Translations under genes and position numbers: made by a program | Assembly: GCA_038078255.1 (NCBI GenBank) | Contig: JBBUEH010000002.1 | Coordinates: 7,534-71,533, forward strand | Source: Patescibacteria group bacterium | GTDB taxonomy: Bacteria; Patescibacteriota; Minisyncoccia; Phycocordibacterales; UBA9973 | Reading direction: 5' to 3' | DNA: 64,000 bases | Notes under the pieces: generated by a model | What the model was told of the DNA's origin: nothing | What the model saw: the letters and a program-made list of their open reading frames with translations, nothing else | The model's database searches: none | Part shown: piece by piece, positions 3,127 through 61,986 of the stretch | How the letters are laid out: every line of letters starts with the position of its first letter | How positions within the stretch are numbered: position 1 is the first letter of the stretch

Positions 3127-3890
3127 TAAATGAGCAAGGGTAGTCCTTGCTCATTATTTGAGTTTGTGTATAATATATAGATGTATCGTAAAGCTCCATT
3201 TATTGAAAATGAACACTATCATATTTATTCTCGAGGAGTAGAAAAACGAAAAATTTTTCTTAATACAAAAGACTATAACCGTTTTGTGGCTCTTTTATAT
3301 ATTATGAATCAAAACATATCATTTAGAATGGATAATTTTTTGCGTAATGGAGAAAAAGACCTGGGAGAAATTTTCAAAGAGAAAAGGGGGGAAACTTTAG
3401 TGTCAATTCTAGGTTATTGTCTTATGCCAAATCATTTTCATATAATTTTATATGAACACACGGAGGGTGGGATTAGTAAATTCATGGGAAAACTTTTAAC
3501 CGCTTATTCAATGTATTTTAATACTAAATATGAGCGAAGTGGTCCCCTATTTACGCATCCTTTTAGATCAGAACACATTAAAGACGAGCCACAGTATATG
3601 TATATATTTTCTTATTTACACCTTAATCCACTTTCAATCATTTATAAAGAGTGGAAAGAAAATGGTATCAAAAATCGCCAAGAAGCAGAAAAATTTTTGA
3701 GAGAGTATAAATTTTCAAGCTATCAAGACTTTCTAGAAAAAGATCGATTGGAATCAGCAATTATTGATTTTATTCGTATCCCAAAATATATCAAGAATAT
3801 GAAATTAAATATAAAAACACAAGAACAAATATTTTCTGATAAAAGATCCATCGAGAAGCTTTGAGCAAGGACTACCCTTGCTCAAAGCTT
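3127..3890 (+). mobile_element. IS200/IS605-family single-ORF element (RAYT-like), bracketed by mutually inverted REP-like hairpins
   Basis: Left hairpin 3131-3153 is TGAGCAAGGGTAGTCCTTGCTCA; right hairpin 3862-3884 is TGAGCAAGGACTACCCTTGCTCA, the exact reverse complement. The right end extends to a 35-nt palindrome AAGCTTTGAGCAAGG..CCTTGCTCAAAGCTT at 3856-3890. The Y1 transposase ORF lies between them. Confidence 0.75.
3181..3864 (+). CDS. tnpA: IS200-like Y1 (HUH) tyrosine transposase TnpA / REP-associated tyrosine transposase
   Basis: HUH motif in LMPNHFHIIL and catalytic-Tyr region AYSMYFNTKYERSGPLF; typical IS200/RAYT N-terminus YHIYSRGVEKRKIF. Confidence 0.8.
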   Translation: MYRKAPFIENEHYHIYSRGVEKRKIFLNTKDYNRFVALLYIMNQNISFRMDNFLRNGEKDLGEIFKEKRGETLVSILGYCLMPNHFHIILYEHTEGGISKFMGKLLTAYSMYFNTKYERSGPLFTHPFRSEHIKDEPQYMYIFSYLHLNPLSIIYKEWKENGIKNRQEAEKFLREYKFSSYQDFLEKDRLESAIIDFIRIPKYIKNMKLNIKTQEQIFSDKRSIEKL

Positions 3891-20775: not shown

Positions 20776-21000
20776 TTTATTTACGGGGCCGCCTTTTTTT
20801 CTTACTTCATTCTTTCTTCTCCTTTCTTCCGAACAGGGTTCGGAAGAACCTTCTCACCCTCCACCCCACCGGGGGTGGAGGGGGGTTCAGAAACAGGGGG
20901 TTGGAGAGATGCTCAAAAGATCCTCCCCAACCCTCGTTCCTCAGGGAAAACCGACTTGATCGGGTTTCCCTGCACCATCCTGTAACCATGGTGTGGTTCC
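20776..21000. repeat. structured GC-rich intergenic block: GCGGCCCCGT..ACGGGGCCGC hairpin plus a cluster of palindromes sharing the AGGGGGTTGG / CCTCCCC cores of repeat family 1; possible structured RNA
   Basis: GC content is far above the local background. It contains CTTCCGAACAGGGTTCGGAAG, CCTCCACCCCACCGGGGGTGGAGG and CAGGGAAAACCGA..TCGGGTTTCCCTG hairpins. The overlapping ORF 20807-21037 is judged spurious. Confidence 0.45.
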
Positions 21001-22721: not shown

Positions 22722-24728
22722 GTGAAACACCAGACGAACAAACTTCAGGGCATCATTTCAATTTCCTCCAAAGGTATTGGATATGTCGCCATTGGTGAAA
22801 ATAAAAATAAAGGGCAAGATCCAGAAATTGATTTCCGGCATTTGAACACTGCGCTCCATGGAGACACGGTGGAAATACTGCTCCATCCTAAGGGACACGG
22901 CAGGCAGACTGCTGAAGTTTCAAAAATAATTTCCCGAGCGAAAATGAACTTCGCCGGGGTGTTGGAAGTGGAGAATAAAATGCATTTTTTGAAACCTGAC
23001 GATAGTAAAATGTACACTGATATTTTAATTCCTGAAAGAAATTTACATGAGGCGAAGGTTGGGCAGAAAGTTTTCGTCGAAATAGTTTCCTGGCATGACT
23101 CCCGCAAAGCGCCAGAGGGAAAGGTGGTGAAAATTCTGGGTCAGCCTGGAGACAATACCGTAGAAATGCATGCGATAGCTTTAGAGAAGGGTTTCGCCGC
23201 AGAACTTCCAAAGAAAGTGGAAGACGAAGCAAGAAAAATCAAAATACTAGGAATGCAAAAAGCTGATTTTGTGGGACGGAGAGACTTTCGAAAAATTCTA
23301 ACCTTTACCATTGACCCCTCTGATGCAAAAGATTTTGATGATGCAATATCATTTAGAGAGCTCCCCTCCTTGAGTAAGGAGGGGGTTGGGGGTGGTAATT
23401 CCAAGCACCACCTCGCCTCCGGCACTCCTCCTTCAAAAGGAGGAGAGGGATTATTTGAAATAGGCATTCACATTGCCGATGTTTCGCATTTCGTGAAGGT
23501 CGGTAGCGCTCTCGATCTTGAAGCGCAAGAACGAGGAACCTCTGTGTATTTAGTCGACAGAACTATCCCCATGCTTCCAGAAACTTTATCAAATGATTTA
23601 TGTAGTCTCGTCCCTCACAAAGATCGACTCACCATGAGCGCCGTTTTTGTCTTGGATAAAAATGCTCAGGTGAAAAGCGAATGGTACGGACGAACTGTGA
23701 TTCATTCGCAAAAAAGATTTACTTATGAAGAAGCAGAAGTATCCATCCATAGGTCTGACGCTCCCCTGCATAAAGAATTAGCTATTTTAAATACTTTGGC
23801 AAAAAAATTAACTAAAGAAAGGTTTACGCAAGGTGCTATATCACTTGACCAAGAAGAAGTAAAATTCGTTTTAGATAAAAAGGGAGTGCCTCTCAAAGTA
23901 TTAAAAAAAGAACGAGGTGATTCCAACAGACTGATTGAAGAATTTATGCTCCTAGCAAATAAAAAAGTAGCGACGGTGTTGTCTCCCTATCCCTCTCTCT
24001 ATCGAGTGCACGATCTGCCGAGTAAAGAAAAAATGGCCGACTTGGCATTTTTCTTGCGTAGTTTAGGACATAAAGTGTCTCTCCGGGACGGAATAATTCC
24101 GACTCATGAGATAAATAAATTATTAGAAAATTTAGAAGACAAAAATGCAAAAGAAAACCTGAGTGATACTGTGCATCGAGCCGTCATTAGATCGATGGCG
24201 AAAGCCGTTTATTCGACCAAAAACATTGGACACTATGGATTGGCATTTTTATACTACACTCACTTTACCTCGCCAATTAGACGATATCCGGACATCATCA
24301 TCCATCGATTGCTTCAAGATTTTCTTTCTGGAAAAAAAAGAAAAAAAGAAAATATGCGAGAAAAAGTTTTAGAATATGAAAAAATAGCCAGGATATCATC
24401 CGAACAAGAAAAAAGGGCCTCCGATGCCGAAAGAGCCTCTATTAAATATAAACAAGTAGAATATATGTCTCTCCGTATGGGAGAAAAATTCGAGGGTATT
24501 ATTAGTGGTATTACCGAGTGGGGTCTATTCATTGAAGAAAAGGAAACAAAATGTGAAGGTATGGTACGAGTCCGAGATATGCAGGATGACTTTTATATTT
24601 TCAACGAAAAAAAATTAGAATTAGTAGGACAAAAAAAGAAAAAGAAATATCGCTTGGGTGATCGAGTGAAAATAAAAGTGAAAGGAGTTGATTTAGAACG
24701 AAAAACCATAGATTATATTTTAAGATGA
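22722..24728 (+). CDS. rnr: ribonuclease R (RNB family 3'-5' exoribonuclease)
   Basis: Cold-shock/OB N-terminus; RNB motifs DFDDAIS and GIHIADVSHFV; C-terminal S1 domain. Confidence 0.9.
   Translation: MKHQTNKLQGIISISSKGIGYVAIGENKNKGQDPEIDFRHLNTALHGDTVEILLHPKGHGRQTAEVSKIISRAKMNFAGVLEVENKMHFLKPDDSKMYTDILIPERNLHEAKVGQKVFVEIVSWHDSRKAPEGKVVKILGQPGDNTVEMHAIALEKGFAAELPKKVEDEARKIKILGMQKADFVGRRDFRKILTFTIDPSDAKDFDDAISFRELPSLSKEGVGGGNSKHHLASGTPPSKGGEGLFEIGIHIADVSHFVKVGSALDLEAQERGTSVYLVDRTIPMLPETLSNDLCSLVPHKDRLTMSAVFVLDKNAQVKSEWYGRTVIHSQKRFTYEEAEVSIHRSDAPLHKELAILNTLAKKLTKERFTQGAISLDQEEVKFVLDKKGVPLKVLKKERGDSNRLIEEFMLLANKKVATVLSPYPSLYRVHDLPSKEKMADLAFFLRSLGHKVSLRDGIIPTHEINKLLENLEDKNAKENLSDTVHRAVIRSMAKAVYSTKNIGHYGLAFLYYTHFTSPIRRYPDIIIHRLLQDFLSGKKRKKENMREKVLEYEKIARISSEQEKRASDAERASIKYKQVEYMSLRMGEKFEGIISGITEWGLFIEEKETKCEGMVRVRDMQDDFYIFNEKKLELVGQKKKKKYRLGDRVKIKVKGVDLERKTIDYILR
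23361..23450 (+). repeat. family-1 GC-rich palindromic element inserted in frame in rnr (encodes LPSLSKEGVGGGNSKHHLASGTPPSKGGEG)
   Basis: Three hairpins: CTCCCCTCCTT-GAGTA-AGGAGGGGG, GGTGGT-AATTCCAAGC-ACCACC and CTCCTCCTT-CAAA-AGGAGGAG. The 90 nt make 30 codons sitting between DFDDAIS and HIADVSH. Confidence 0.7.
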
Positions 24729-32866: not shown

Positions 32867-35286
<2,420 letters not shown>

Positions 35287-35303
<17 letters not shown>

Positions 35304-36753
35304 CTAAATTTTTTTCTATTATTTTATTTCCTTCATTGTACGCCACATGCATTTCTTCCCCATTTTTCTTAAACACTGTTCCTATTTCAAAAATTTTTAT
35401 TTCACTTAGGCCTAGAAATGAGGCATTTATTTTATTTAATTTTACACTCTCCAGCAATCCATCACTCAAATTCGTTCTCAAGAATTTTTTATCAGAAGCA
35501 CTTTGCATAACTTCTACTTCGCCCTTATCTCTAAAAGTATAAGTCATCACTTCATTGTATCCATCAGCTAATAATTTCTTCCTCACCCATTCTATTTTGG
35601 CGTAAGTTTCATTTACTTTAGGTTTAAAGTTTATTTTAGGTATATTCCCTTTTATTTTATCGTAACCCAAAATTCTTCCTATCTCTTCCGCCATATCTTC
35701 TTCTATCTCTAAATCAAGGCGCATCATCGGCACAGTTATTTTGAATACTCCTTTGTTTTCTGTATATACAAAATTATATCTTTTCAAAATATCTTCAATC
35801 TCATCACTCGACACATTCAAACCTAAAATTTTAGAAATTCTCTCTGCTGAAAAAGAAAGCTTTCGCTCTGCCTGTTTCTCTGGATAAGTATCTACAATGT
35901 CTTCAAACACTGCCTCTGGACACATCTCTAGAACTAAAGCCGAGAGTTCATGCATGGCATATGACGCAAGCTCGGGTGATAAATCATTTTCGAAACGCTT
36001 TCTGGCATCGGTAAAAATATTAAGCGCTTGACCTGTTTTTCTAGCAAACACTGGATCAAAATTATCAGCTTCCAAAATAAGGTCGGTCGTGGAAGTCGTA
36101 ATTTCTGCGTATTTGCCTCCCTTGATGCCCGTATCAAGCGGATTTCCTTCTCCGTCAGAAATAATTACCATTGTATTATTTAATTCCTTTTCTTCTCCGG
36201 TAAGTAAAGTTATTTTTTGTCCATTTTGAGCAGCGTTAATATTTAATCGAGCACCCTTTACTTTATTCAAATCAAAAGCATGAGTGGGTTGCCCACAATC
36301 AAACATCACTAAATTCGTTGCATCTACTATATTATTTATTGATCTCTGCCCAATTGATTCTAAATGTTTTACTACCCACTCTGGTGAAGGACCAATTTTT
36401 ACATTACGCACAATGCGCCCGACATGTCTGCGATCTTTTGCTGTATTTATTTCTATTTTTAATTCAGTTGGCTTGGATTCTGGAATTTTATATTTTGCCG
36501 TTGGATCAACAAAGTTAATATTCAAAAGTGAGGCAAGTTCACGAGCAATGCCTAGATGAGAAAGTAGATCATGCGCCCGATTTGGCAAAATATTTATATC
36601 AAAAATAAAATCACCACCCCCAGCCCCCTCCTCCCCAAGGAGGGGAGTTAGACTCTCAACCTCAGCAATATGATAAGTAATAATATCTGCTAGCTTCTCT
36701 GCTTCTGGAGCATCCGGTATATACCATTTAAGCCAATTGTAAGAAATTTTCAT
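35287..36753 (-). CDS. pheT: phenylalanyl-tRNA synthetase beta subunit (reduced form), C-terminal domain split off
   Basis: N-terminal MKISYNWLKWYIPDAP... and B3/4 and B5 core. Carries an in-frame family-1 element (LLGEEGAGGGD). Confidence 0.8.
36613..36650 (-). repeat. family-1 GC-rich palindromic element in frame in pheT
   Basis: CTCCTCCCCAAGGAGGGGAG hairpin. Shares AAGGAGGGGGNTGGGGGTGGT with the rnr and recG copies. Confidence 0.6.
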
Positions 36754-36828: not shown

Positions 36829-37521
36829 TTAGAATTGATTAAGTCGCAAATCTCCTTGATAAAAAAGACGAACATCTGGAATATCCCATTTCACCATCGC
36901 AATACGATCCAGCCCCCCACCAAAAGCAAAGCCTTGTACTTTTGTAGGATCAAGGCCGACATTACGGAGAACATTCGGATGAATCACTCCTGCTCCCATC
37001 ATTTCAAGCCATTTACCTTTGAATTTAGCAAAAACTTCTATTGAGGGTTCGGTAAAAGGGAAAAAACTTGGACGAAATTCTACCTCTACTTGTTCACCTA
37101 ACATTTTTTTATAAAATTGTGTAAGCACACCTTTTAAATGAGCTAAAGAAATATTTTCTCCAATCATCCCCCCATCTATTTGAAAAAATTGCATTTCATG
37201 AGTTACATCCGTTGCCTCGTTTCGAAAGACTTTACCAATTGAAATAAAAGCAAAAGGGGTTCTGCCTTCTTTGCCTGCTTGCTCAATAGTTCGTGCAATA
37301 ACAGCCGTAGTATGTGTACGAAGCACATACTCTTTTCTATTTTTTATCCAAAAAGTGTCTTGCATATCTCGCGCTGGATGATCATCAGGGAAATTTAAGA
37401 CACCAAAATTATACCAATCACTTTCGATTTCGGGACCATCAATCGTAATCTCAAAACCCATTTCAGAAAAAGCCTGATAAGCTTCATTTGCTAAAATAGA
37501 AAGCGGATGTTCGGTGCTCAT
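36829..37521 (-). CDS. pheS: phenylalanyl-tRNA synthetase alpha subunit (catalytic core only)
   Basis: Class II motifs, FQIDGG and GAGVIHPNVL. Confidence 0.85.
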   Translation of the reverse strand: MSTEHPLSILANEAYQAFSEMGFEITIDGPEIESDWYNFGVLNFPDDHPARDMQDTFWIKNRKEYVLRTHTTAVIARTIEQAGKEGRTPFAFISIGKVFRNEATDVTHEMQFFQIDGGMIGENISLAHLKGVLTQFYKKMLGEQVEVEFRPSFFPFTEPSIEVFAKFKGKWLEMMGAGVIHPNVLRNVGLDPTKVQGFAFGGGLDRIAMVKWDIPDVRLFYQGDLRLNQF

Positions 37522-40999: not shown

Positions 41000-41090
41000 T
41001 GGCGGAACCGGAGAGATTTGAACTCTCGAGACCCTTTCGAGCCTGCCACCTTTCCAAGGTGGTGCACTAGACCGCTATGCGACGGTTCCA
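41000..41090 (-). tRNA. tRNA-Ser (anticodon GGA), class II with long variable arm, CCA encoded
   Basis: Acceptor GGAACCG/CGGTTCC; anticodon arm CCACC-TTGGAAA-GGTGG; T-arm GAGAG-TTCAAAT-CTCTC; discriminator G then CCA. Confidence 0.8.
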
Positions 41091-41138: not shown

Positions 41139-43250
<2,112 letters not shown>

Positions 43251-59069: not shown

Positions 59070-59158
59070 CGGAGCCGGGCGGATTCGAACCGCCGAGGGG
59101 TTTTGAAGCCCCTGCCTCTTTAGCAAAGAGGTACGTTAGACCACTCTGACACGGCTCC
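59070..59158 (-). tRNA. tRNA-Ser (anticodon GCU), class II
   Basis: Acceptor GGAGCCG/CGGCTCC; anticodon arm CCTCT-TTGCTAA-AGAGG; long variable arm; T-arm GGCGG-TTCGAAT-CCGCC; discriminator G; no encoded CCA. Confidence 0.8.
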
Positions 59159-59233: not shown

Positions 59234-59320
59234 GGATGAGTGGGTGAGTGGCTTAAACCAGCGGTTTACTAAACCGCCGTCCCTTTAAAAGGACCGTGAG
59301 TTCGAATCTCACCTCATCCG
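59234..59320 (+). tRNA. class II (long-variable-arm, G73) tRNA with atypical anticodon loop UUACUAA (apparent anticodon ACU)
   Basis: Acceptor GGATGAG/CTCATCC; 3-bp D-stem; anticodon stem GCGGT/ACCGC; variable arm GTCC-CTTTAAAA-GGAC; T-arm GTGAG-TTCGAAT-CTCAC. Confidence 0.55.
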
Positions 59321-59381: not shown

Positions 59382-59723
59382 ATGAAAGATTTATCTCCAA
59401 TTATTTTAAGAATAGGAATCGGATTAGTAATAATCTGGTTTGGTTTACAACAAATTAATACTCCCCTTGCTTGGGTTGTATATCTACCAACTTTTACAGA
59501 GAACCTGCCAATCAGTCAGACAACTTTTGTTTCCTTGAATGGATATTTCGAATTAATCTTCGGGATTTTGCTCGTAGCGGGATTTTTTACTAGAATTGTT
59601 GCTTTTTTCTTGGCATTACATCTCTTAGGAATAGTTTTGACTGTGGGGTATAACGAAATAGGTGTTCGGGATTTCGGTATTTTTATTGCCCTAGTCTCAA
59701 TTTTCTTATATGAAATGGAGTGA
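59382..59723 (+). CDS. DoxX-family small membrane protein
   Basis: RIGIGLVIIWFGLQQ and three or four transmembrane helices. Confidence 0.45.
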   Translation: MKDLSPIILRIGIGLVIIWFGLQQINTPLAWVVYLPTFTENLPISQTTFVSLNGYFELIFGILLVAGFFTRIVAFFLALHLLGIVLTVGYNEIGVRDFGIFIALVSIFLYEME

Positions 59724-61986
59724 CAAATTAGAATTAAAATTCCGCTTAGATGAAAAACAAAAAAAAGCTTTGCGTAAGCTGAAACTTTTCTCGGTGGCTG
59801 ATCTCTTATACCACTTCCCTGTCAGATATAGCGACATAAGTACAGTGAAAAAAATTAGCGAACTAATTCCCGGTGAAATTGCCACGATCTATGGAAAAGT
59901 TTCAAATTTAAAAACTAAAAAAGGTTTCCACTCCAAGATTCCCATGGCAGAAGGCACGATTGAAGATATCTCTGGAAAAATAAAAATTATTTGGTTCAAC
60001 CAAGCGTATCTGGCAAAAATGCTTCATGAAGACGATAGCGTTAAACTCACGGGCAAGGTGACTCAAAGTAAAAGTCCTGCCCGCAATGCCTCCAGCATAG
60101 CTGGCGCAGGCGGGGGTATATACCTAGCCAATCCAGAATTTGAAAAAGTGCCAGATATGCCAATAGATGCGCATGATACTCTTTTTAGACCCCCTCGCCC
60201 TTTGGGCACTCCCCCTTCGCAGGGGGAGAGGATTCCTCCCCGCCTTAAGAAGGAGGGGGCAGGGGGTGGTCTCTCTTACCCCATCTATGCTGAGACCCGT
60301 GGAATAACTTCCAAGTGGTTTTATCATGCGATTGAAAAATTCTTGAGAGAAAAAACTCTCGATGGTGTTGCAGACTATCTTCCGAGTGATATTTTAAAAA
60401 AATATAATTTACCAGCCTTGAAAACTTCGTTCATCTGGATTCATAAACCGAAAAATAAAAACGATGCTGAATCTGCGAGGAAAAGATTTGCCTTTGAGGA
60501 AGTTTTTTGCATCCAACTCGAACGACAACATGACAAATTTGAATATAGGAAAAATAAATCTTTCCAAATTGTTTCGGAAAAAGAAAATGTTGAGAAGTTT
60601 TTAAAACGCTTTCCTTTTGAACCCACAAATTCTCAAAAAAAATCCATTGAAACAGTACTGGAAGATATGTCAAAAGATTTTCCAATGTCCCGTCTGCTTG
60701 AAGGAGATGTAGGGTCTGGGAAAACTGCCGTAGCGGCAACGGCAAGCTATATAACAGTGGCGCAAAGACCCTTCGACCACACTCAGGGCAAGCCACAAAA
60801 TTTCGGTAATCTGCAGGTTGCCTACATGGCACCGACAGAAATACTAGCCACCCAACACTTCGAATCATTCATTGAATATTTCCAACATCTGCCAATCAAT
60901 ATCGGACTGATTACTGGATCCGGTTGTCGTAAATTTCCTTCCAAAGTAAATCCGAGTGGCTGGACCACCATCTCTCGAGCACAACTATTGAAGTGGGTAG
61001 CCAATGGAGAAATACCAATTCTAATCGGCACCCATGCCCTCATTCAAAAAACAGTTAAATTTAAAAACTTGGCGCTCGTGGTAATAGATGAACAGCATAG
61101 ATTTGGCACGGAACAAAGAAGGAGATTAGTTAAAAAAGATGGACTGGCACCACACCTCCTCTCCATGACTGCCACTCCCATCCCTCGCACCCTGGCGTTC
61201 ACTATTTATGGCGATCTCGATCTCTCCCTCCTCGATGAAATGCCTCTGGGACGAAAACAAATAATTACAGAAATTATTCCGCCCAATAAAAGAGAAGAAA
61301 CTTACGAACAAATCAAGCAGGAATTAAAAAACGGCAGACAACTTTATGTAATTTGTCCGAGGATATTTGCACCTGACCCTGAAAAAGAATTAGCGCTGAA
61401 TGTAAAGTCTGCCACAGAAGAAGCTAAGCGATTAAAAAAAGAAGTTTTTCAAAAATATGAAATAGGCGTCTTGCACAGCCAGATGAGTAAAATTAAAAAA
61501 GAAGAAATAATGAAGGAATTTGCGAATGGCAAATTGAATATTCTCTGCGCCACCTCGGTAGTAGAAGTGGGTGTCAATGTGCCGAATGCTACAGTGATTG
61601 TTATTGAGGGCGCTGAACGGTTTGGTCTAGCCCAACTTCATCAACTTCGTGGACGAGTCATCCGAAGTAACCATCAAGCGTATTGCTACATTTTTGCCGA
61701 TGCTAAAAGTGACAAGACAATTGCCAGATTAAAAGCTCTCAAAACTGCCAAGAATGGCTTTGAATTAGCTGAACTTGACTTGACCCTCCGGGGCGCAGGC
61801 GAACTCGGCGGGACCAAACAGTGGGGCATCACCGACCTCGGCATGGAAGCGATTAAAAATATAAAAATGGTAGAAGCCGCCCGCACTGAAGCTATAAGAA
61901 TAATAGCCGAAGACCCTGAACTAAATAAATACCCTCTGCTTAAACAAAAAGTTCATGAAAAAGCTGGAGAATTCCATTTTGAGTAA
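59710..61986 (+). CDS. recG: ATP-dependent DNA helicase RecG with two in-frame palindromic-element insertions in the N-terminal domain
   Basis: RecG N-terminus (LGI.TV.DLLYHFPVRY), helicase motifs I to VI and C-terminal TRG motif. Insertions at 60076-60114 and 60189-60270. Confidence 0.9.
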   Translation: MKWSDKLELKFRLDEKQKKALRKLKLFSVADLLYHFPVRYSDISTVKKISELIPGEIATIYGKVSNLKTKKGFHSKIPMAEGTIEDISGKIKIIWFNQAYLAKMLHEDDSVKLTGKVTQSKSPARNASSIAGAGGGIYLANPEFEKVPDMPIDAHDTLFRPPRPLGTPPSQGERIPPRLKKEGAGGGLSYPIYAETRGITSKWFYHAIEKFLREKTLDGVADYLPSDILKKYNLPALKTSFIWIHKPKNKNDAESARKRFAFEEVFCIQLERQHDKFEYRKNKSFQIVSEKENVEKFLKRFPFEPTNSQKKSIETVLEDMSKDFPMSRLLEGDVGSGKTAVAATASYITVAQRPFDHTQGKPQNFGNLQVAYMAPTEILATQHFESFIEYFQHLPINIGLITGSGCRKFPSKVNPSGWTTISRAQLLKWVANGEIPILIGTHALIQKTVKFKNLALVVIDEQHRFGTEQRRRLVKKDGLAPHLLSMTATPIPRTLAFTIYGDLDLSLLDEMPLGRKQIITEIIPPNKREETYEQIKQELKNGRQLYVICPRIFAPDPEKELALNVKSATEEAKRLKKEVFQKYEIGVLHSQMSKIKKEEIMKEFANGKLNILCATSVVEVGVNVPNATVIVIEGAERFGLAQLHQLRGRVIRSNHQAYCYIFADAKSDKTIARLKALKTAKNGFELAELDLTLRGAGELGGTKQWGITDLGMEAIKNIKMVEAARTEAIRIIAEDPELNKYPLLKQKVHEKAGEFHFE
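60076..60114 (+). repeat. family-2 element in frame in recG (encodes SPARNASSIAGAGGG)
   Basis: CCTGCCCGCAATGCCTCCAGCATAGCTGGCGCAGGCGGG, near-identical termini to 48197-48268. Confidence 0.65.
60189..60270 (+). repeat. family-1 element in frame in recG (encodes PPRPLGTPPSQGERIPPRLKKEGAGGG)
   Basis: GGCACTCCCCCTTCGCAGGGGGAGAGG (B module) followed by AAGGAGGGGGCAGGGGGTGGT (A module 3' half). Hairpins CCCCCT-TCGC-AGGGGG. Confidence 0.65.

What the first reader, a model, noticed from the sequence alone, without database searches (positions are those of the whole stretch)
23361..23450. Family 1 of GC-rich palindromic mini-elements inserted IN FRAME in essential genes
Homologous GC-rich hairpin modules sit inside coding sequence without breaking the frame. 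The AT-rich background makes them stand out. Module A is CTCCCCTCCTT..AAGGAGGGGGNTGGGGGTGGT, encoding LPSLSKEGVGGG. Module B is GGCACTCC(C/T)CCTTC..GGAGAGG, encoding GTPPS(K/Q)GGEG. Copies: rnr 23361-23450 (A+B, 30 extra residues), pheT 36613-36650 (A), ligA 42729-42757 (A half) and 42901-42940 (B), recG 60189-60270 (B+A). Degenerate copies occur in the intergenic block at 20826-20990. All encode Gly/Pro/Glu-rich surface linkers. The behaviour matches Rickettsia palindromic elements (RPE), which also insert in frame into protein-coding genes.
Basis: partly seen in the sequence, partly recalled or inferred. Interest (0 to 1): 0.8.

Follow-up and report, generated by a model that had tools for sequence, protein, structure and literature searches.

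The report
Triplex-motif DNA repeats inside genes
Short GC-rich repeats of a known but unexplained bacterial kind (hairpin plus a mirror-image third arm that can fold into a DNA triple helix) sit in frame inside housekeeping genes of a tiny-genome Nomurabacteria bacterium, where they are read as floppy surface loops and come and go between close relatives.

Summary
The window (Candidatus Nomurabacteria, about 38% GC) holds six GC-rich elements, none expected by chance, all in frame in rnr, pheT, ligA and recG.

They are more than palindromes. Each has a pyrimidine arm, a loop, a purine arm, a spacer and a G/T arm that mirrors the purine arm (G to G, A to T/A). This is the class II intrastrand triplex motif, known as BoxC, PIT or TM (Holder 2015). 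"Module B" is the same design on the opposite strand with a 10-12 nt spacer. A+B is an inverted pair.

The module A core recurs with mirror covariation in many phyla and in viral contigs, mostly intergenic. In E. coli the related motif is reported as always intergenic.

About half of 120 orthologs lack each insert. The same module occurs in non-homologous genes and in intergenic DNA. The inserts fall where solved homologues have gaps, and AlphaFold gives pLDDT below 50 in rnr. A roughly 99% identical strain lacks both ligA inserts, and its only strongly diverged block starts and ends at them.

The RPE analogy holds for behaviour, not for membership. The mobilising mechanism is unknown. Verdict: new variant of a known kind; interest 0.6.

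The parts
23361..23397 (+). Triplex motif 'A' in rnr, on the sense strand. Y arm CTCCCCTCCTT 23361-23371, loop GAGT, R arm AAGGAGGGGG 23376-23385, spacer TT, mirror (RH) arm GGGGGTGGTA 23388-23397. Encodes LPSLSKEGVGGG.
   Evidence: 9 Watson-Crick pairs and 10/10 mirror-compatible triads by inspection. The hairpin is in the minimum-free-energy fold.
23406..23445 (-). Triplex motif 'B' in rnr, a class II motif on the antisense strand. Y CTCCTCCTT (23437-23445), R AAGGAGGAG (23425-23433), 10-nt spacer TGCCGGAGGC, RH GAGGTGGTG (23406-23414). Read on the sense strand as HHLASGTPPSKGGE. With part 1 it forms a tail-to-tail inverted pair of about 90 nt.
   Evidence: 8/9 triads. The stem change relative to the recG copy is matched by a G-to-T change in the RH arm.
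36613..36647 (-). Triplex motif 'A' in pheT, on the sense strand of a minus-strand gene. Y CTCCCCTCCT, R AGGAGGGGG, spacer CT, RH GGGGGTGGT. Encodes LTPLLGEEGAGGG.
   Evidence: 9/9 triads. The L216 ortholog lacks it (VEKKADDY in its place).
42717..42755 (-). Triplex motif in ligA site 2, a BoxC/TM_ECO-like variant. Y CCCCTCTCCTT, R AAGGAGAGGGG, spacer TCA, RH GGAGTGAGGTG. Encodes (I)[12 protein letters not shown].
   Evidence: 9/11 triads. 7 extra residues relative to E. coli LigA 2owo. Absent from the 94% identical P0241/L256.
42901..42938 (-). Decayed triplex motif in ligA site 1. Y CCCCCCCCTCCC, degraded purine arm GGAAGAGAGG, spacer CA, RH GGGGGTGAGGG. Encodes [13 protein letters not shown], just before the KxDG adenylation motif.
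   Evidence: 8 extra residues relative to 2owo. Absent from P0241/L256. Fails the three-arm scan.
60189..60228 (-). Triplex motif 'B' in recG, a class II motif on the antisense strand. Y CTCCCCCT, loop GCGA, R AGGGGGAG, 12-nt spacer TGCCCAAAGGGC, RH GAGGGGGT. Read on the sense strand as RPPRPLGTPPSQGE.
   Evidence: Nearly identical over 45 nt (2 mismatches by inspection) to the insert in the rnr gene of another genome (L004, GCA_001787205.1).
60235..60271 (+). Triplex motif 'A' in recG, on the sense strand. Y CCTCCCCGCCTT (one mismatch), R AAGGAGGGGG, spacer CA, RH GGGGGTGGTC. Encodes IPPRLKKEGAGGG.
   Evidence: Most recG orthologs lack it.
20826..20990 (.). Intergenic cluster of three strong GC-rich hairpins. 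Parts of it resemble the R-spacer-RH junction and its complement. It is degenerate and not a clean three-arm motif.
   Evidence: z = -5.2. No hit in the three-arm scans. No Rfam family.
42703..42945 (-). Mosaic block in ligA bounded by the two inserts. The strain L256 is 99.7% and 98.4% identical on either side. Inside the block it is 79.6% identical (113/142, differences mostly at third codon positions) and lacks both inserts.
22722..24728 (+). Host gene rnr (RNase R). The insert occupies residues about 214-243, at the tip of a beta hairpin in the RNB domain.
35287..36753 (-). Host gene pheT (short form). The insert occupies residues 35-47, in the linker where the canonical B2 domain is missing.
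41139..43250 (-). Host gene ligA. Inserts occupy residues about 104-117 and 165-177.
59710..61986 (+). Host gene recG. Inserts occupy residues 160-187, between the wedge and helicase domains.

Best explanation
The elements are G/C-rich class II intrastrand triplex-motif repeats, the kind first described as BoxC, then as PIT elements and TM motifs.

Anatomy. Each element is a three-arm unit on a single strand: a pyrimidine arm, a purine arm that base-pairs with it, and a 3' G/T arm. The third arm is the mirror image of the purine arm. Once the DNA is single-stranded it can therefore lie antiparallel in the major groove, forming G*G:C and T*A:T or A*A:T triads.

Behaviour. They act as small, structure-defined, non-autonomous dispersed repeats. 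They occur singly, as inverted pairs (A+B), or two-sided around one hairpin.

Why they are inside genes (inferred). This lineage has compact genomes (about 88% of bases lie in long open frames). Copies landing in or replacing short variable surface loops and linkers of housekeeping proteins are tolerated, provided the frame stays open and the peptide is flexible. Translation into Gly/Pro/Glu/Lys-rich disordered loops is a by-product, not the purpose.

Turnover. The elements turn over quickly by gain, partial deletion and replacement, and at least partly through short recombination tracts between related genomes whose ends coincide with the elements.

What is shown: the three-arm architecture and its covariation, the dispersal, the presence/absence polymorphism, the loop locations, and one mosaic block bounded by two elements.

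What is inferred: triplex folding of these particular sequences, the selfish or neutral status of the elements, and breakage or recombination at them as the cause of turnover. The enzyme or process that copies them to new sites is unknown.
For: Architecture:
- Six three-arm motifs in the window against 0 in shuffles.
- 74 in 1.22 Mb of related DNA against 0 in 466 kb shuffled.

Mirror covariation, pan-bacterial set:
- 175 non-identical copies from many phyla and viral contigs were selected on a fixed core.
- At the first position outside the fixed core, purine-arm A pairs with tail T 39, A 4, G 2, and G with G 93/93.
- Overall 224/257 are mirror-compatible, against 120 +/- 7 (maximum 144) in 1000 shuffles, and 116 and 91 when the register is slid.

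Mirror covariation, Nomurabacteria DNA selected on the hairpin only:
- 37 perfect mirror arms against 2 perfect direct-repeat arms.
- Four different purine arms each have their own matching third arm (AGGAGGAG/GAGGTGGT, AGGAGGGG/GGGGTGGT, AGGGGGAG/GAGGGGGT, GGAGAGGG/GGGTGAGG).

Published kind:
- The definition of class II, the TM_ECO consensus, and in-vitro triplex formation by CD and NMR are in PMC4666352.

Dispersal:
- The same 45-nt module, nearly identical, is in recG here and in rnr of another genome.
- The A+B pair is in rnr, in ligA of P0284, and in intergenic DNA in L027.
- The core is present in 119+ genome loci and 52 viral contigs.

Polymorphism:
- rnr 62 empty and 58 filled of 120; recG about 85/35; ligA about 66/50 and 57/64.
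- Insert state is patchy on the RNase R similarity tree.

Loop location:
- The inserts fall in gaps relative to solved homologues.
- AlphaFold gives pLDDT below 50 and coil for residues 217-241, between two strands.

Recombination:
- A mosaic block is bounded by the two ligA elements in a roughly 99% identical strain.
Against: - Triplex folding has not been shown for these sequences. Even for E. coli BoxC it was seen only with isolated single strands, and in-vivo DMS footprinting was negative.
- No transposase or other mobilising function is linked to the elements. There are no terminal inverted repeats and no target-site duplications.
- At every site compared, the element replaces a few variable codons rather than being a clean insertion. 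In-situ growth or recombinational replacement is therefore not excluded.
- Family A is in the same orientation and frame at four independent sites: rnr, pheT, recG, and ligA site 2 of other species. This is about 0.005 by chance and shows a strong protein-level filter, possibly a protein-level benefit.
- The mosaic-block evidence is a single case from metagenome assemblies, where mis-joining at repeats cannot be fully excluded.
- My related-genome sample is centred on one gene (rnr), so genome-wide frequencies are only rough.
Confidence: 0.65

Rival explanations
1. The elements are plain palindromic miniature mobile elements like the Rickettsia palindromic elements. A hairpin-forming MITE is moved by a transposase and tolerated in frame, and the G-rich tail has no structural role.
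For: - Hairpins with compensatory changes.
- In-frame dispersal with presence/absence polymorphism.
- RPEs are the known precedent for frequent in-frame insertion.
Against: - The tail covaries with the purine arm in mirror register across phyla. A hairpin-only model does not predict this.
- Size is 35-45 nt against about 150 bp.
- There are no terminal inverted repeats and no target duplications.
- The host lineage is different.
- No transposase is linked to the elements.
Confidence: 0.15
2. The elements are REP-type sequences mobilised by the RAYT-like Y1 (IS200-like) transposase encoded in the window at 3181-3864.
For: - The Y1_Tnp gene gives Pfam E = 5.6e-9, and its best NCBIfam match is the REP-associated tyrosine transposase.
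- A homolog lies 3 kb from rnr in L001.
- The window gene is flanked by an inverted pair of hairpins with a GTAG-containing loop.
Against: - The flanking hairpins (GAGCAAGG-GTAGT-CCTTGCTC) are unrelated to the modules. They occur only next to the gene itself in 1.2 Mb of related DNA.
- The NCBIfam score of 39 is below the cut-off of 80.
- The modules lack a GTAG tag.
- The L001 homolog has no such flanks.
Confidence: 0.05
3. The inserts are selected at the protein level as flexible Gly/Pro-rich linkers. The nucleotide similarity is a side effect of coding for similar peptides.
For: - Family A has the same frame and orientation at four sites.
- The inserts always sit in loops or linkers.
- In pheT the insert sits exactly where a domain has been lost.
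Against: - Near-identical elements occur in intergenic DNA (L027) and in intergenic DNA of many other phyla.
- The same design on the other strand gives an unrelated peptide (module B).
- Arms covary at the nucleotide level, including synonymous positions.
- About half of the orthologs, and a 94% identical LigA, do without the inserts.
Confidence: 0.05
4. The elements act in the mRNA. The hairpins slow ribosomes, stabilise the transcript or time co-translational folding.
For: - The hairpins are stable.
- They lie between domains or structural elements.
- The purine arm resembles a Shine-Dalgarno sequence (AAGGAGG), by inspection.
Against: - According to the literature, the purine-motif third arm cannot form a triplex in RNA, yet it is the conserved, covarying part.
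- Class II strands are sense for four copies and antisense for two.
- The same core is mostly intergenic in other phyla.
Confidence: 0.07
5. The G-rich arms form G-quadruplexes (and the C-rich arms i-motifs) rather than triplexes.
For: The R and RH arms contain runs of 2-5 G. The only two library papers that print this G-rich 15-mer are G-quadruplex studies of RNA.
Against: - A quadruplex does not require the complementary C-rich arm.
- It does not predict that an A in the purine arm is matched by T or A at the mirror position.
Confidence: 0.05
6. The elements are not mobile. They arise in place by slippage or template switching in variable loops, and they look alike because any G/C-rich mirror or inverted repeat converges on similar sequences.
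For: - Each element replaces a few variable codons rather than inserting cleanly.
- The ligA Y arm overlaps the conserved IPLxL residues.
- P0040 and P0090 differ by in-place remodelling of one element.
Against: - Units of 45 nt and about 90 nt, nearly identical including their spacers and the NSK linker, sit in non-homologous genes and in intergenic DNA of different genera.
- Template switching makes inverted repeats, not mirror repeats.
Confidence: 0.08

Closest known systems
BoxC / PIT elements / TM_ECO: G/C-rich class II intrastrand triplex motifs of E. coli and other bacteria (Hoyne et al. 2000; Holder et al. 2015, PMC4666352)
   Same: - Same three-arm order on one strand: pyrimidine arm, loop of 3-9, purine arm, short spacer, mirror G/T arm.
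- Same arm length (8-11 nt) and total length (about 35 nt).
- G/C-rich within AT-richer surroundings, and multi-copy.
- Also occurs as inverted ('palindromic') pairs.
- Patchy between close relatives and associated with local sequence change.
- No linked transposase.
- The ligA copy and the CCCTCTCC/GGAGAGGG/GGGTGAGG family in related genomes are close to the E. coli consensus.
   Different: - The arms differ in sequence: CCCCTCC/GGAGGGG/GGGGTGG against CCCTCNCCC/GGGNGAGGG/GGGNGAGGG. The published consensus has 0 matches in the window.
- A long-spacer form exists, with a 10-12 nt mini-hairpin as spacer.
- Location differs above all. TM_ECO is reported as always intergenic, whereas all six copies here are inside genes and translated in frame.
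Rickettsia palindromic elements (RPE)
   Same: - Repeated palindromic DNA found at unusually high frequency in frame inside unrelated housekeeping genes of a reduced genome.
- Each family gives a conserved peptide.
- The insertions are compatible with protein folds.
   Different: - RPEs are about 150 bp, in ten families restricted to Rickettsia. The elements here are 35-45 nt (about 90 nt as a pair).
- The elements here carry a mirror third arm.
- Their core is shared with many phyla.
- No sequence comparison with RPEs could be made.
REP / REPIN elements with RAYT transposases
   Same: - Short GC-rich hairpins of 20-40 nt, multi-copy.
- Often arranged as inverted pairs (REPIN, like A+B).
- A RAYT-like gene is present in the window.
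   Different: - REPs are extragenic, carry a GTAG or CGTC tag, and match the hairpins that flank their RAYT gene.
- Here the RAYT-like gene's hairpins are unrelated to the modules and are not dispersed.
Nostocales miniature inverted-repeat element carrying the same core
   Same: The identical core (CCCCCTCC-loop-GGAGGGGGTTGGGGGTGGGG) sits at the centre of an element of about 100 bp with terminal inverted repeats TATAGCG.../...CGCTATA. It is present in many Nostoc, Trichormus and Dolichospermum loci.
   Different: - That element is intergenic.
- Its core is embedded in a host-specific element with its own inverted ends.
- There is no such outer shell in the Nomurabacteria copies.

Membership tests
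Class II intrastrand triplex motif (ITxF definition, Holder 2015) | Three consecutive domains on one strand, in the order 5' pyrimidine arm, purine arm, reverse-Hoogsteen arm 3' | tested here: met
   Six copies in the window meet this with 8-nt arms.
Class II intrastrand triplex motif (ITxF definition, Holder 2015) | The third arm is antiparallel to the purine arm with G*G:C and T*A:T or A*A:T triads, i.e. mirror symmetry. Stem 6-15 nt with at most one mismatch. | tested here: met
   - Triads: 10/10, 9/9, 9/10, 8/9, 7/7 and 9/11, by inspection.
- Covariation: 224/257 against 120 +/- 7 in shuffles.
- 37 perfect mirror arms against 2 perfect direct-repeat arms.
Class II intrastrand triplex motif (ITxF definition, Holder 2015) | Loops of 1-6 nt between arms | tested here: inconclusive
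   A-type copies fit (hairpin loop 3-6 nt, spacer 2-4 nt).
Class II intrastrand triplex motif (ITxF definition, Holder 2015) | The isolated strand actually folds into a triplex (CD, NMR, melting) | not testable with these tools
   Shown for TM_ECO only. ViennaRNA models hairpins only.
TM_ECO / BoxC sequence family | Consensus CCCTCNCCC N3-6 GGGNGAGGG N3 GGGNGAGGG | tested here: not met
   - 0 matches in the window and 3 among the 258 loci fetched.
- The ligA copy (GGAGAGGGG TCA GGAGTGAGG) is near but outside the consensus.
- The family in related genomes (CCCTCTCC/GGAGAGGG/GGGTGAGG) is also near but outside it.
TM_ECO / BoxC sequence family | Intergenic location | tested here: not met
   - All six window copies are in ORFs.
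- 40 of 47 unique contexts in related DNA lie in stop-free stretches of at least 150 aa.
- TM_ECO is reported as always intergenic.
Rickettsia palindromic elements | Palindromic repeat of about 150 bp belonging to one of the ten RPE families | tested here: not met
   Length is 35-45 nt, or about 90 nt for the pair. Sequence similarity to RPE consensus sequences could not be tested.
Rickettsia palindromic elements | In-frame insertion in unrelated genes with a conserved encoded peptide | tested here: met
   The peptide (K/E)EG(V/A)GGG recurs in rnr, pheT, recG and ligA of relatives.
Rickettsia palindromic elements | Host genus Rickettsia | tested here: not met
   The host is Candidatus Nomurabacteria / Patescibacteria, from the names of the best protein hits.
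REP/REPIN with RAYT | Dispersed hairpins match the hairpins that flank the RAYT gene and carry a GTAG or CGTC tag | tested here: not met
   The flank hairpins at 3132-3152 and 3863-3883 differ from the modules. They are found only beside the gene.
MITE (classical) | Terminal inverted repeats and target-site duplications | tested here: not met
   Comparisons of empty and filled sites in rnr, pheT and ligA show replacement of a few codons and no duplication.

The most novel reading that the evidence does not exclude
Triplex-motif repeats are active recombination cassettes. Their single-strand fold is the substrate for breakage or strand exchange. They therefore copy themselves, and the DNA between two of them, into homologous genes of related genomes by short conversion tracts that start and end at the motif. 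On this reading the motif is a DNA-structure-based mobile element with no transposase of its own. It would explain the 30-year-old BoxC/PIT puzzle. It would also give reduced genomes a built-in way to remodel the surface loops of their core proteins.
Probability: 0.15. Interest if true: 0.85.

Novelty: new variant of a known kind. Interest (0 to 1): 0.6.

Why it matters
BoxC/PIT/TM triplex motifs have been known for decades. They fold into triplexes in vitro and are abundant in many bacteria, yet neither their function nor the way they spread is known. In E. coli they are confined to intergenic DNA, where sites with and without the motif are hard to compare.

Here the same kind of element sits inside well-conserved genes of a compact-genome lineage. 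Every gain, loss, remodelling event and recombination end can therefore be read against a codon-aligned background and hundreds of orthologs. That makes questions about target choice, orientation, turnover rate and linkage to recombination directly testable from existing metagenomes.

The finding also shows that in-frame colonisation of core proteins by selfish repeats is not peculiar to Rickettsia. It explains part of the odd Gly/Pro-rich insertions seen in proteins of these uncultured bacteria. This matters for annotation, alignment and structure prediction.

Tried and rejected
- The genome-contig scan used only the 16-base tail. It is informative only because the unsearched hairpin arm turned up in most hits.
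- The Rfam gathering scan of the window and eight loci found no family at the elements.
- Literature searches for CPR plus palindromic or in-frame elements, and for the literal sequence, found nothing relevant.
- I first read module B as a pyrimidine-motif (class IV) triplex on the sense strand. I rejected this because the rnr copy has an A where a T would be needed, whereas the antisense purine-motif reading fits 8/9.
- The RAYT link was rejected.
- P0040 and P0090 looked like two different elements at one site in near-identical genes. Their DNA shows one-sided and two-sided versions of the same element.
- A search for further near-identical locus pairs differing by an element found none in my data (one search timed out).
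- I did not pursue orientation relative to replication. Class II strands are 2 plus and 4 minus in a window of uniform GC skew.
Full report
**1. What is in the sequence**

The window is about 35-43% GC in 2-kb steps. The stated coordinates hold short stretches of 60% GC or more.

A scan for perfect GC-rich hairpins finds six loci: 20857, 23363, 23425, 36625, 42731 and 60209. Shuffles give 0.5 hairpin calls. A scan restricted to polypyrimidine/polypurine arms again finds six loci, against 0.1 in shuffles, and adds a separate palindrome in gyrB.

The module A tail GGAGGGGGNNGGGGGTGGT occurs three times exactly, against 0.01 expected. The module B head occurs twice exactly.

Pfam confirms the host ORFs as RNase R, PheT, LigA and RecG. 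Every copy is in frame.

**2. Organism and orthologs**

The best protein hits are named Candidatus Nomurabacteria, Paceibacterota or Patescibacteria.

I aligned 120 RNase R orthologs of 72-81% identity. At the single site between DDAISFxE and YEIGIHIADVS:
- 62 have no insert and 58 do.
- Some have A only, some B only, many have A+B, and others carry different GC-type inserts.

The state is patchy on a similarity tree. Filled genes often have empty genes as nearest neighbours.

The same holds elsewhere:
- recG is about 85 empty and 35 filled, with B only, A only and B+A all present.
- Both ligA sites are polymorphic.
- The one pheT ortholog in hand lacks the insert.

At the DNA level, the insert in the rnr gene of GCA_001787205.1 (L004) is nearly identical over 45 nt to the insert in recG of the window.

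The A+B pair, including its NSK linker, also occurs:
- in LigA of another species (P0284);
- almost unchanged in an intergenic spacer of a different Paceibacterota genome (L027).

These are dispersed repeats, not conserved protein features.

**3. The elements have a third arm**

A public-genome scan with only the 16-base tail returned hits from Nostocales, Sphingomonadales, Terriglobia, Cytophagales, Clostridia, Chloroflexi, Zixibacteria and Parcubacteria. Most hits carried the unsearched hairpin arm CCCCCTCC a few bases upstream. A 22-base pattern found 52 viral contigs.

The tail is neither a complement nor a direct repeat of the purine arm. It is its mirror image with A replaced by T.

I tested this on 175 non-identical copies, looking at positions outside the fixed core:
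- At the first such position, purine-arm A goes with tail T 39 times, A 4 times and G 2 times.
- At that position, purine-arm G goes with G 93 of 93 times.
- Overall 224 of 257 positions are mirror-compatible.
- The control values are 120 +/- 7 (maximum 144) in 1000 shuffles, and 116 and 91 when the register is slid by one or two.

A second test used 1.22 Mb of Nomurabacteria-like DNA (the window, L001-L004 and 80 metagenome loci). Hairpins there were selected without regard to any tail. They have a perfect mirror arm within 14 nt in 37 strand views, against 2 for a perfect direct-repeat arm.

A three-arm scan gives 74 hits in that DNA and 0 in 466 kb of shuffled sequence. The window has five strict or six relaxed hits and none in shuffles.

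**4. Module B is the same design on the other strand**

Read on the antisense strand:
- The recG copy is CTCCCCCT-GCGA-AGGGGGAG-TGCCCAAAGGGC-GAGGGGGT.
- The rnr copy is CTCCTCCTT-TTG-AAGGAGGAG-TGCCGGAGGC-GAGGTGGTG.

The change in the stem between the two copies is matched by a G-to-T change in the third arm.

Across related genomes, four different purine arms each have their own matching third arm.

So A+B in rnr is a tail-to-tail inverted pair, and B+A in recG is a head-to-head pair. Two-sided versions sharing one hairpin also occur.

The ligA copy at 42717-42755 is a full element of a slightly different family (9/11 triads). The copy at 42901-42938 is decayed, with G-to-A changes in its purine arm.

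**5. The known kind**

This architecture is the class II purine-motif intrastrand triplex. It was described as BoxC, then as PIT elements, and surveyed as TM motifs by Holder et al. 2015 (PMC4666352).

That paper reports the following:
- The E. coli consensus is CCCTCNCCC N3-6 GGGNGAGGG N3 GGGNGAGGG.
- The isolated strand forms a triplex in vitro, but no triplex signal was seen for double-stranded DNA or in vivo.
- G/C-rich motifs are abundant in Nostoc, Anabaena and Microcystis.
- The motifs are associated with local instability.
- No promoter, terminator or mobility function was found.
- The E. coli motif is always intergenic.
- Purine-motif triplexes do not form in RNA. This points to a DNA-level feature here.

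The published consensus has no match in the window. These elements therefore belong to the kind but not to that sequence family.

**6. Where the inserts sit in the proteins**

- In RNase R, the insert replaces a four-residue turn (DDGS in B. subtilis RNase R 8cdu) between two strands of the RNB domain. An AlphaFold model built on 65 orthologs gives pLDDT below 50 and coil for residues 217-241, between strands 207-214 and 244-252.
- In LigA, the two inserts are 8 and 7 extra residues relative to E. coli 2owo. The first lies just before the KxDG strand and the second just after IPLxL.
- In RecG, the inserts lie between the wedge and helicase domains.
- In PheT, the insert is the linker at the place where the canonical B2 domain is missing.

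At each site compared at the DNA level, the element replaces a few variable codons. It is not a clean insertion, and there is no target duplication.

**7. Coding against intergenic location**

In the related DNA, 40 of 47 unique contexts lie in stop-free stretches of at least 150 codons. The baseline is 88% of bases.

The sample is centred on rnr, so this is biased. Outside that gene I count about six or seven genic sites and five intergenic sites. Intergenic DNA is thus still favoured, but coding DNA is far from excluded.

Family A is in the same orientation and frame, (K/E)EG(V/A)GGG, at four independent sites. In the rnr copy the other two sense frames contain stop codons in the loop, by inspection. 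This points to a strong filter on what can persist.

**8. A mosaic block bounded by two elements**

The closest LigA (P0241, 94% identical) lacks both inserts.

Its contig L256 compares with the window as follows:
- It is 99.7% identical over 1037 nt on one side and 98.4% over 2339 nt on the other.
- Within the gene, 304 of 305 bases upstream of the first element are identical.
- Only 113 of 142 bases between the two elements are identical, with differences mostly at third codon positions.
- Only three differences follow in the next 1000 or so bases.

A short tract from a donor about 20% diverged has therefore been exchanged, and both of its ends fall within a few bases of the elements.

A second, milder patch further along the gene has no elements. 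Recombination is thus common in this population. The coincidence of both tract ends with the elements is nonetheless unlikely for random tracts.

The direction of the exchange is unknown. It is one case from metagenome assemblies. I treat it as suggestive evidence that the elements are sites where recombination starts or stops.

**9. Explanations weighed**

The best-supported account is that these are structure-defined, non-autonomous triplex-motif repeats that persist in permissive protein loops of a compact genome, with translation as a by-product.

The rivals fare as follows:
- The plain-palindrome (RPE-like) account fails to explain the mirror arm.
- The RAYT account fails because the transposase-like gene at 3181-3864 has its own, unrelated, non-dispersed hairpins.
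- The protein-level linker account fails on the intergenic copies and on the opposite-strand copies.
- The mRNA account fails on mixed orientation and on the chemistry of purine-motif triplexes.
- The quadruplex account does not predict A/T mirror covariation.
- In-place origin cannot explain near-identical 45-nt and roughly 90-nt units in unrelated contexts. In-place remodelling does, however, occur.

What remains unknown is how new copies are made.

**10. Verdict**

- Classification: a new variant of a known kind, namely G/C-rich class II intrastrand triplex-motif repeats living in frame inside housekeeping genes.

Noticed in passing
window 34272-34315 (gyrB, ORF 32867-34972, minus strand): A separate 44-nt perfect palindrome, AACTTGGAGGTTCTTCCTCC-AAGT-GGAGGAAGAACCTCCAAGTT, lies in frame in gyrB and encodes [15 protein letters not shown]. 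Five orthologs have an unrelated shorter loop (DWNNKKGLDDSDV and similar). It has no mirror third arm, so it belongs to a different repeat family.
   Followed up: partly
window 3181-3864 (+), hairpins 3132-3152 and 3863-3883: An IS200/RAYT-like Y1 transposase gene (Pfam Y1_Tnp E = 5.6e-9; NCBIfam REP_Tyr_transpos 39 bits, below the cut-off of 80). It is flanked by an inverted pair of hairpins, GAGCAAGG-GTAGT-CCTTGCTC and GAGCAAGG-ACTAC-CCTTGCTC. The same arrangement occurs in L238 and L244. The hairpins are not dispersed elsewhere in 1.2 Mb.
   Followed up: yes
window 60080-60114 (recG residues about 124-135): A third GC-rich imperfect palindrome in recG, CCCGCAATGCCTCCAGCATAGCTGGCGCAGGCGGG, encodes PARNASSIAGAGG. 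It is present only in this genome among 120 orthologs. Other orthologs carry a different insert (IYPHTFxxxKGxG) a few residues away.
   Followed up: partly
window ligA residues about 430-455 (roughly 41890-41960, minus strand): The zinc-finger region of LigA is a third hypervariable site. The window has a direct peptide repeat, [15 protein letters not shown]. Orthologs carry other recurring inserts, such as SALLHPSGGTFRxQNSS and TTPSPLLNKEG...GGVPKGRGG, which suggests further repeat families.
   Followed up: no
window 41409-41683 (ligA, gene positions 1568-1842): A second mosaic patch of about 87% identity relative to the otherwise roughly 99% identical strain L256. No repeat elements lie at its ends. 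This indicates frequent short-tract recombination in this population.
   Followed up: partly
window 35287-36753 and 36829-37521: PheT is only 488 aa and lacks the region aligned to residues about 36-156 of solved bacterial PheT (the B2/OB domain). PheS is only 230 aa. The triplex motif forms the linker at the deletion point.
   Followed up: partly
L029, L033, L041, L042, L060, L072, L075, L120 and others (Nostocales): The identical core sits at the centre of an element of about 100 bp with terminal inverted repeats TATAGCGTTTC.../...GAACCGCTATA. In L119 and L035 the hairpin loop carries an extra insertion of 50-70 nt. It looks like a miniature inverted-repeat element built around a triplex motif.
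   Followed up: partly
L199/L200/L247/L252 (RNase R of related genomes): These RNase R genes (up to 732 aa) carry triplex motifs at a second site about 400 nt upstream of the usual one (PSPDRRGAGGEV, a two-sided form). RNase R therefore has more than one permissive site.
   Followed up: no
L031, L106: Near-pure poly-G stretches at contig ends in public assemblies. These are probably two-colour sequencing artefacts, not biological copies of the motif.
   Followed up: no
L069 122-201 (-): An AdoCbl-II riboswitch lies about 180 nt from a module A copy in a Parcubacteria contig. The only other Rfam hits in the scan (window plus eight loci) were three tRNAs in the window at 41003-41089, 59070-59158 and 59234-59320, and one tRNA in L005.
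   Followed up: no
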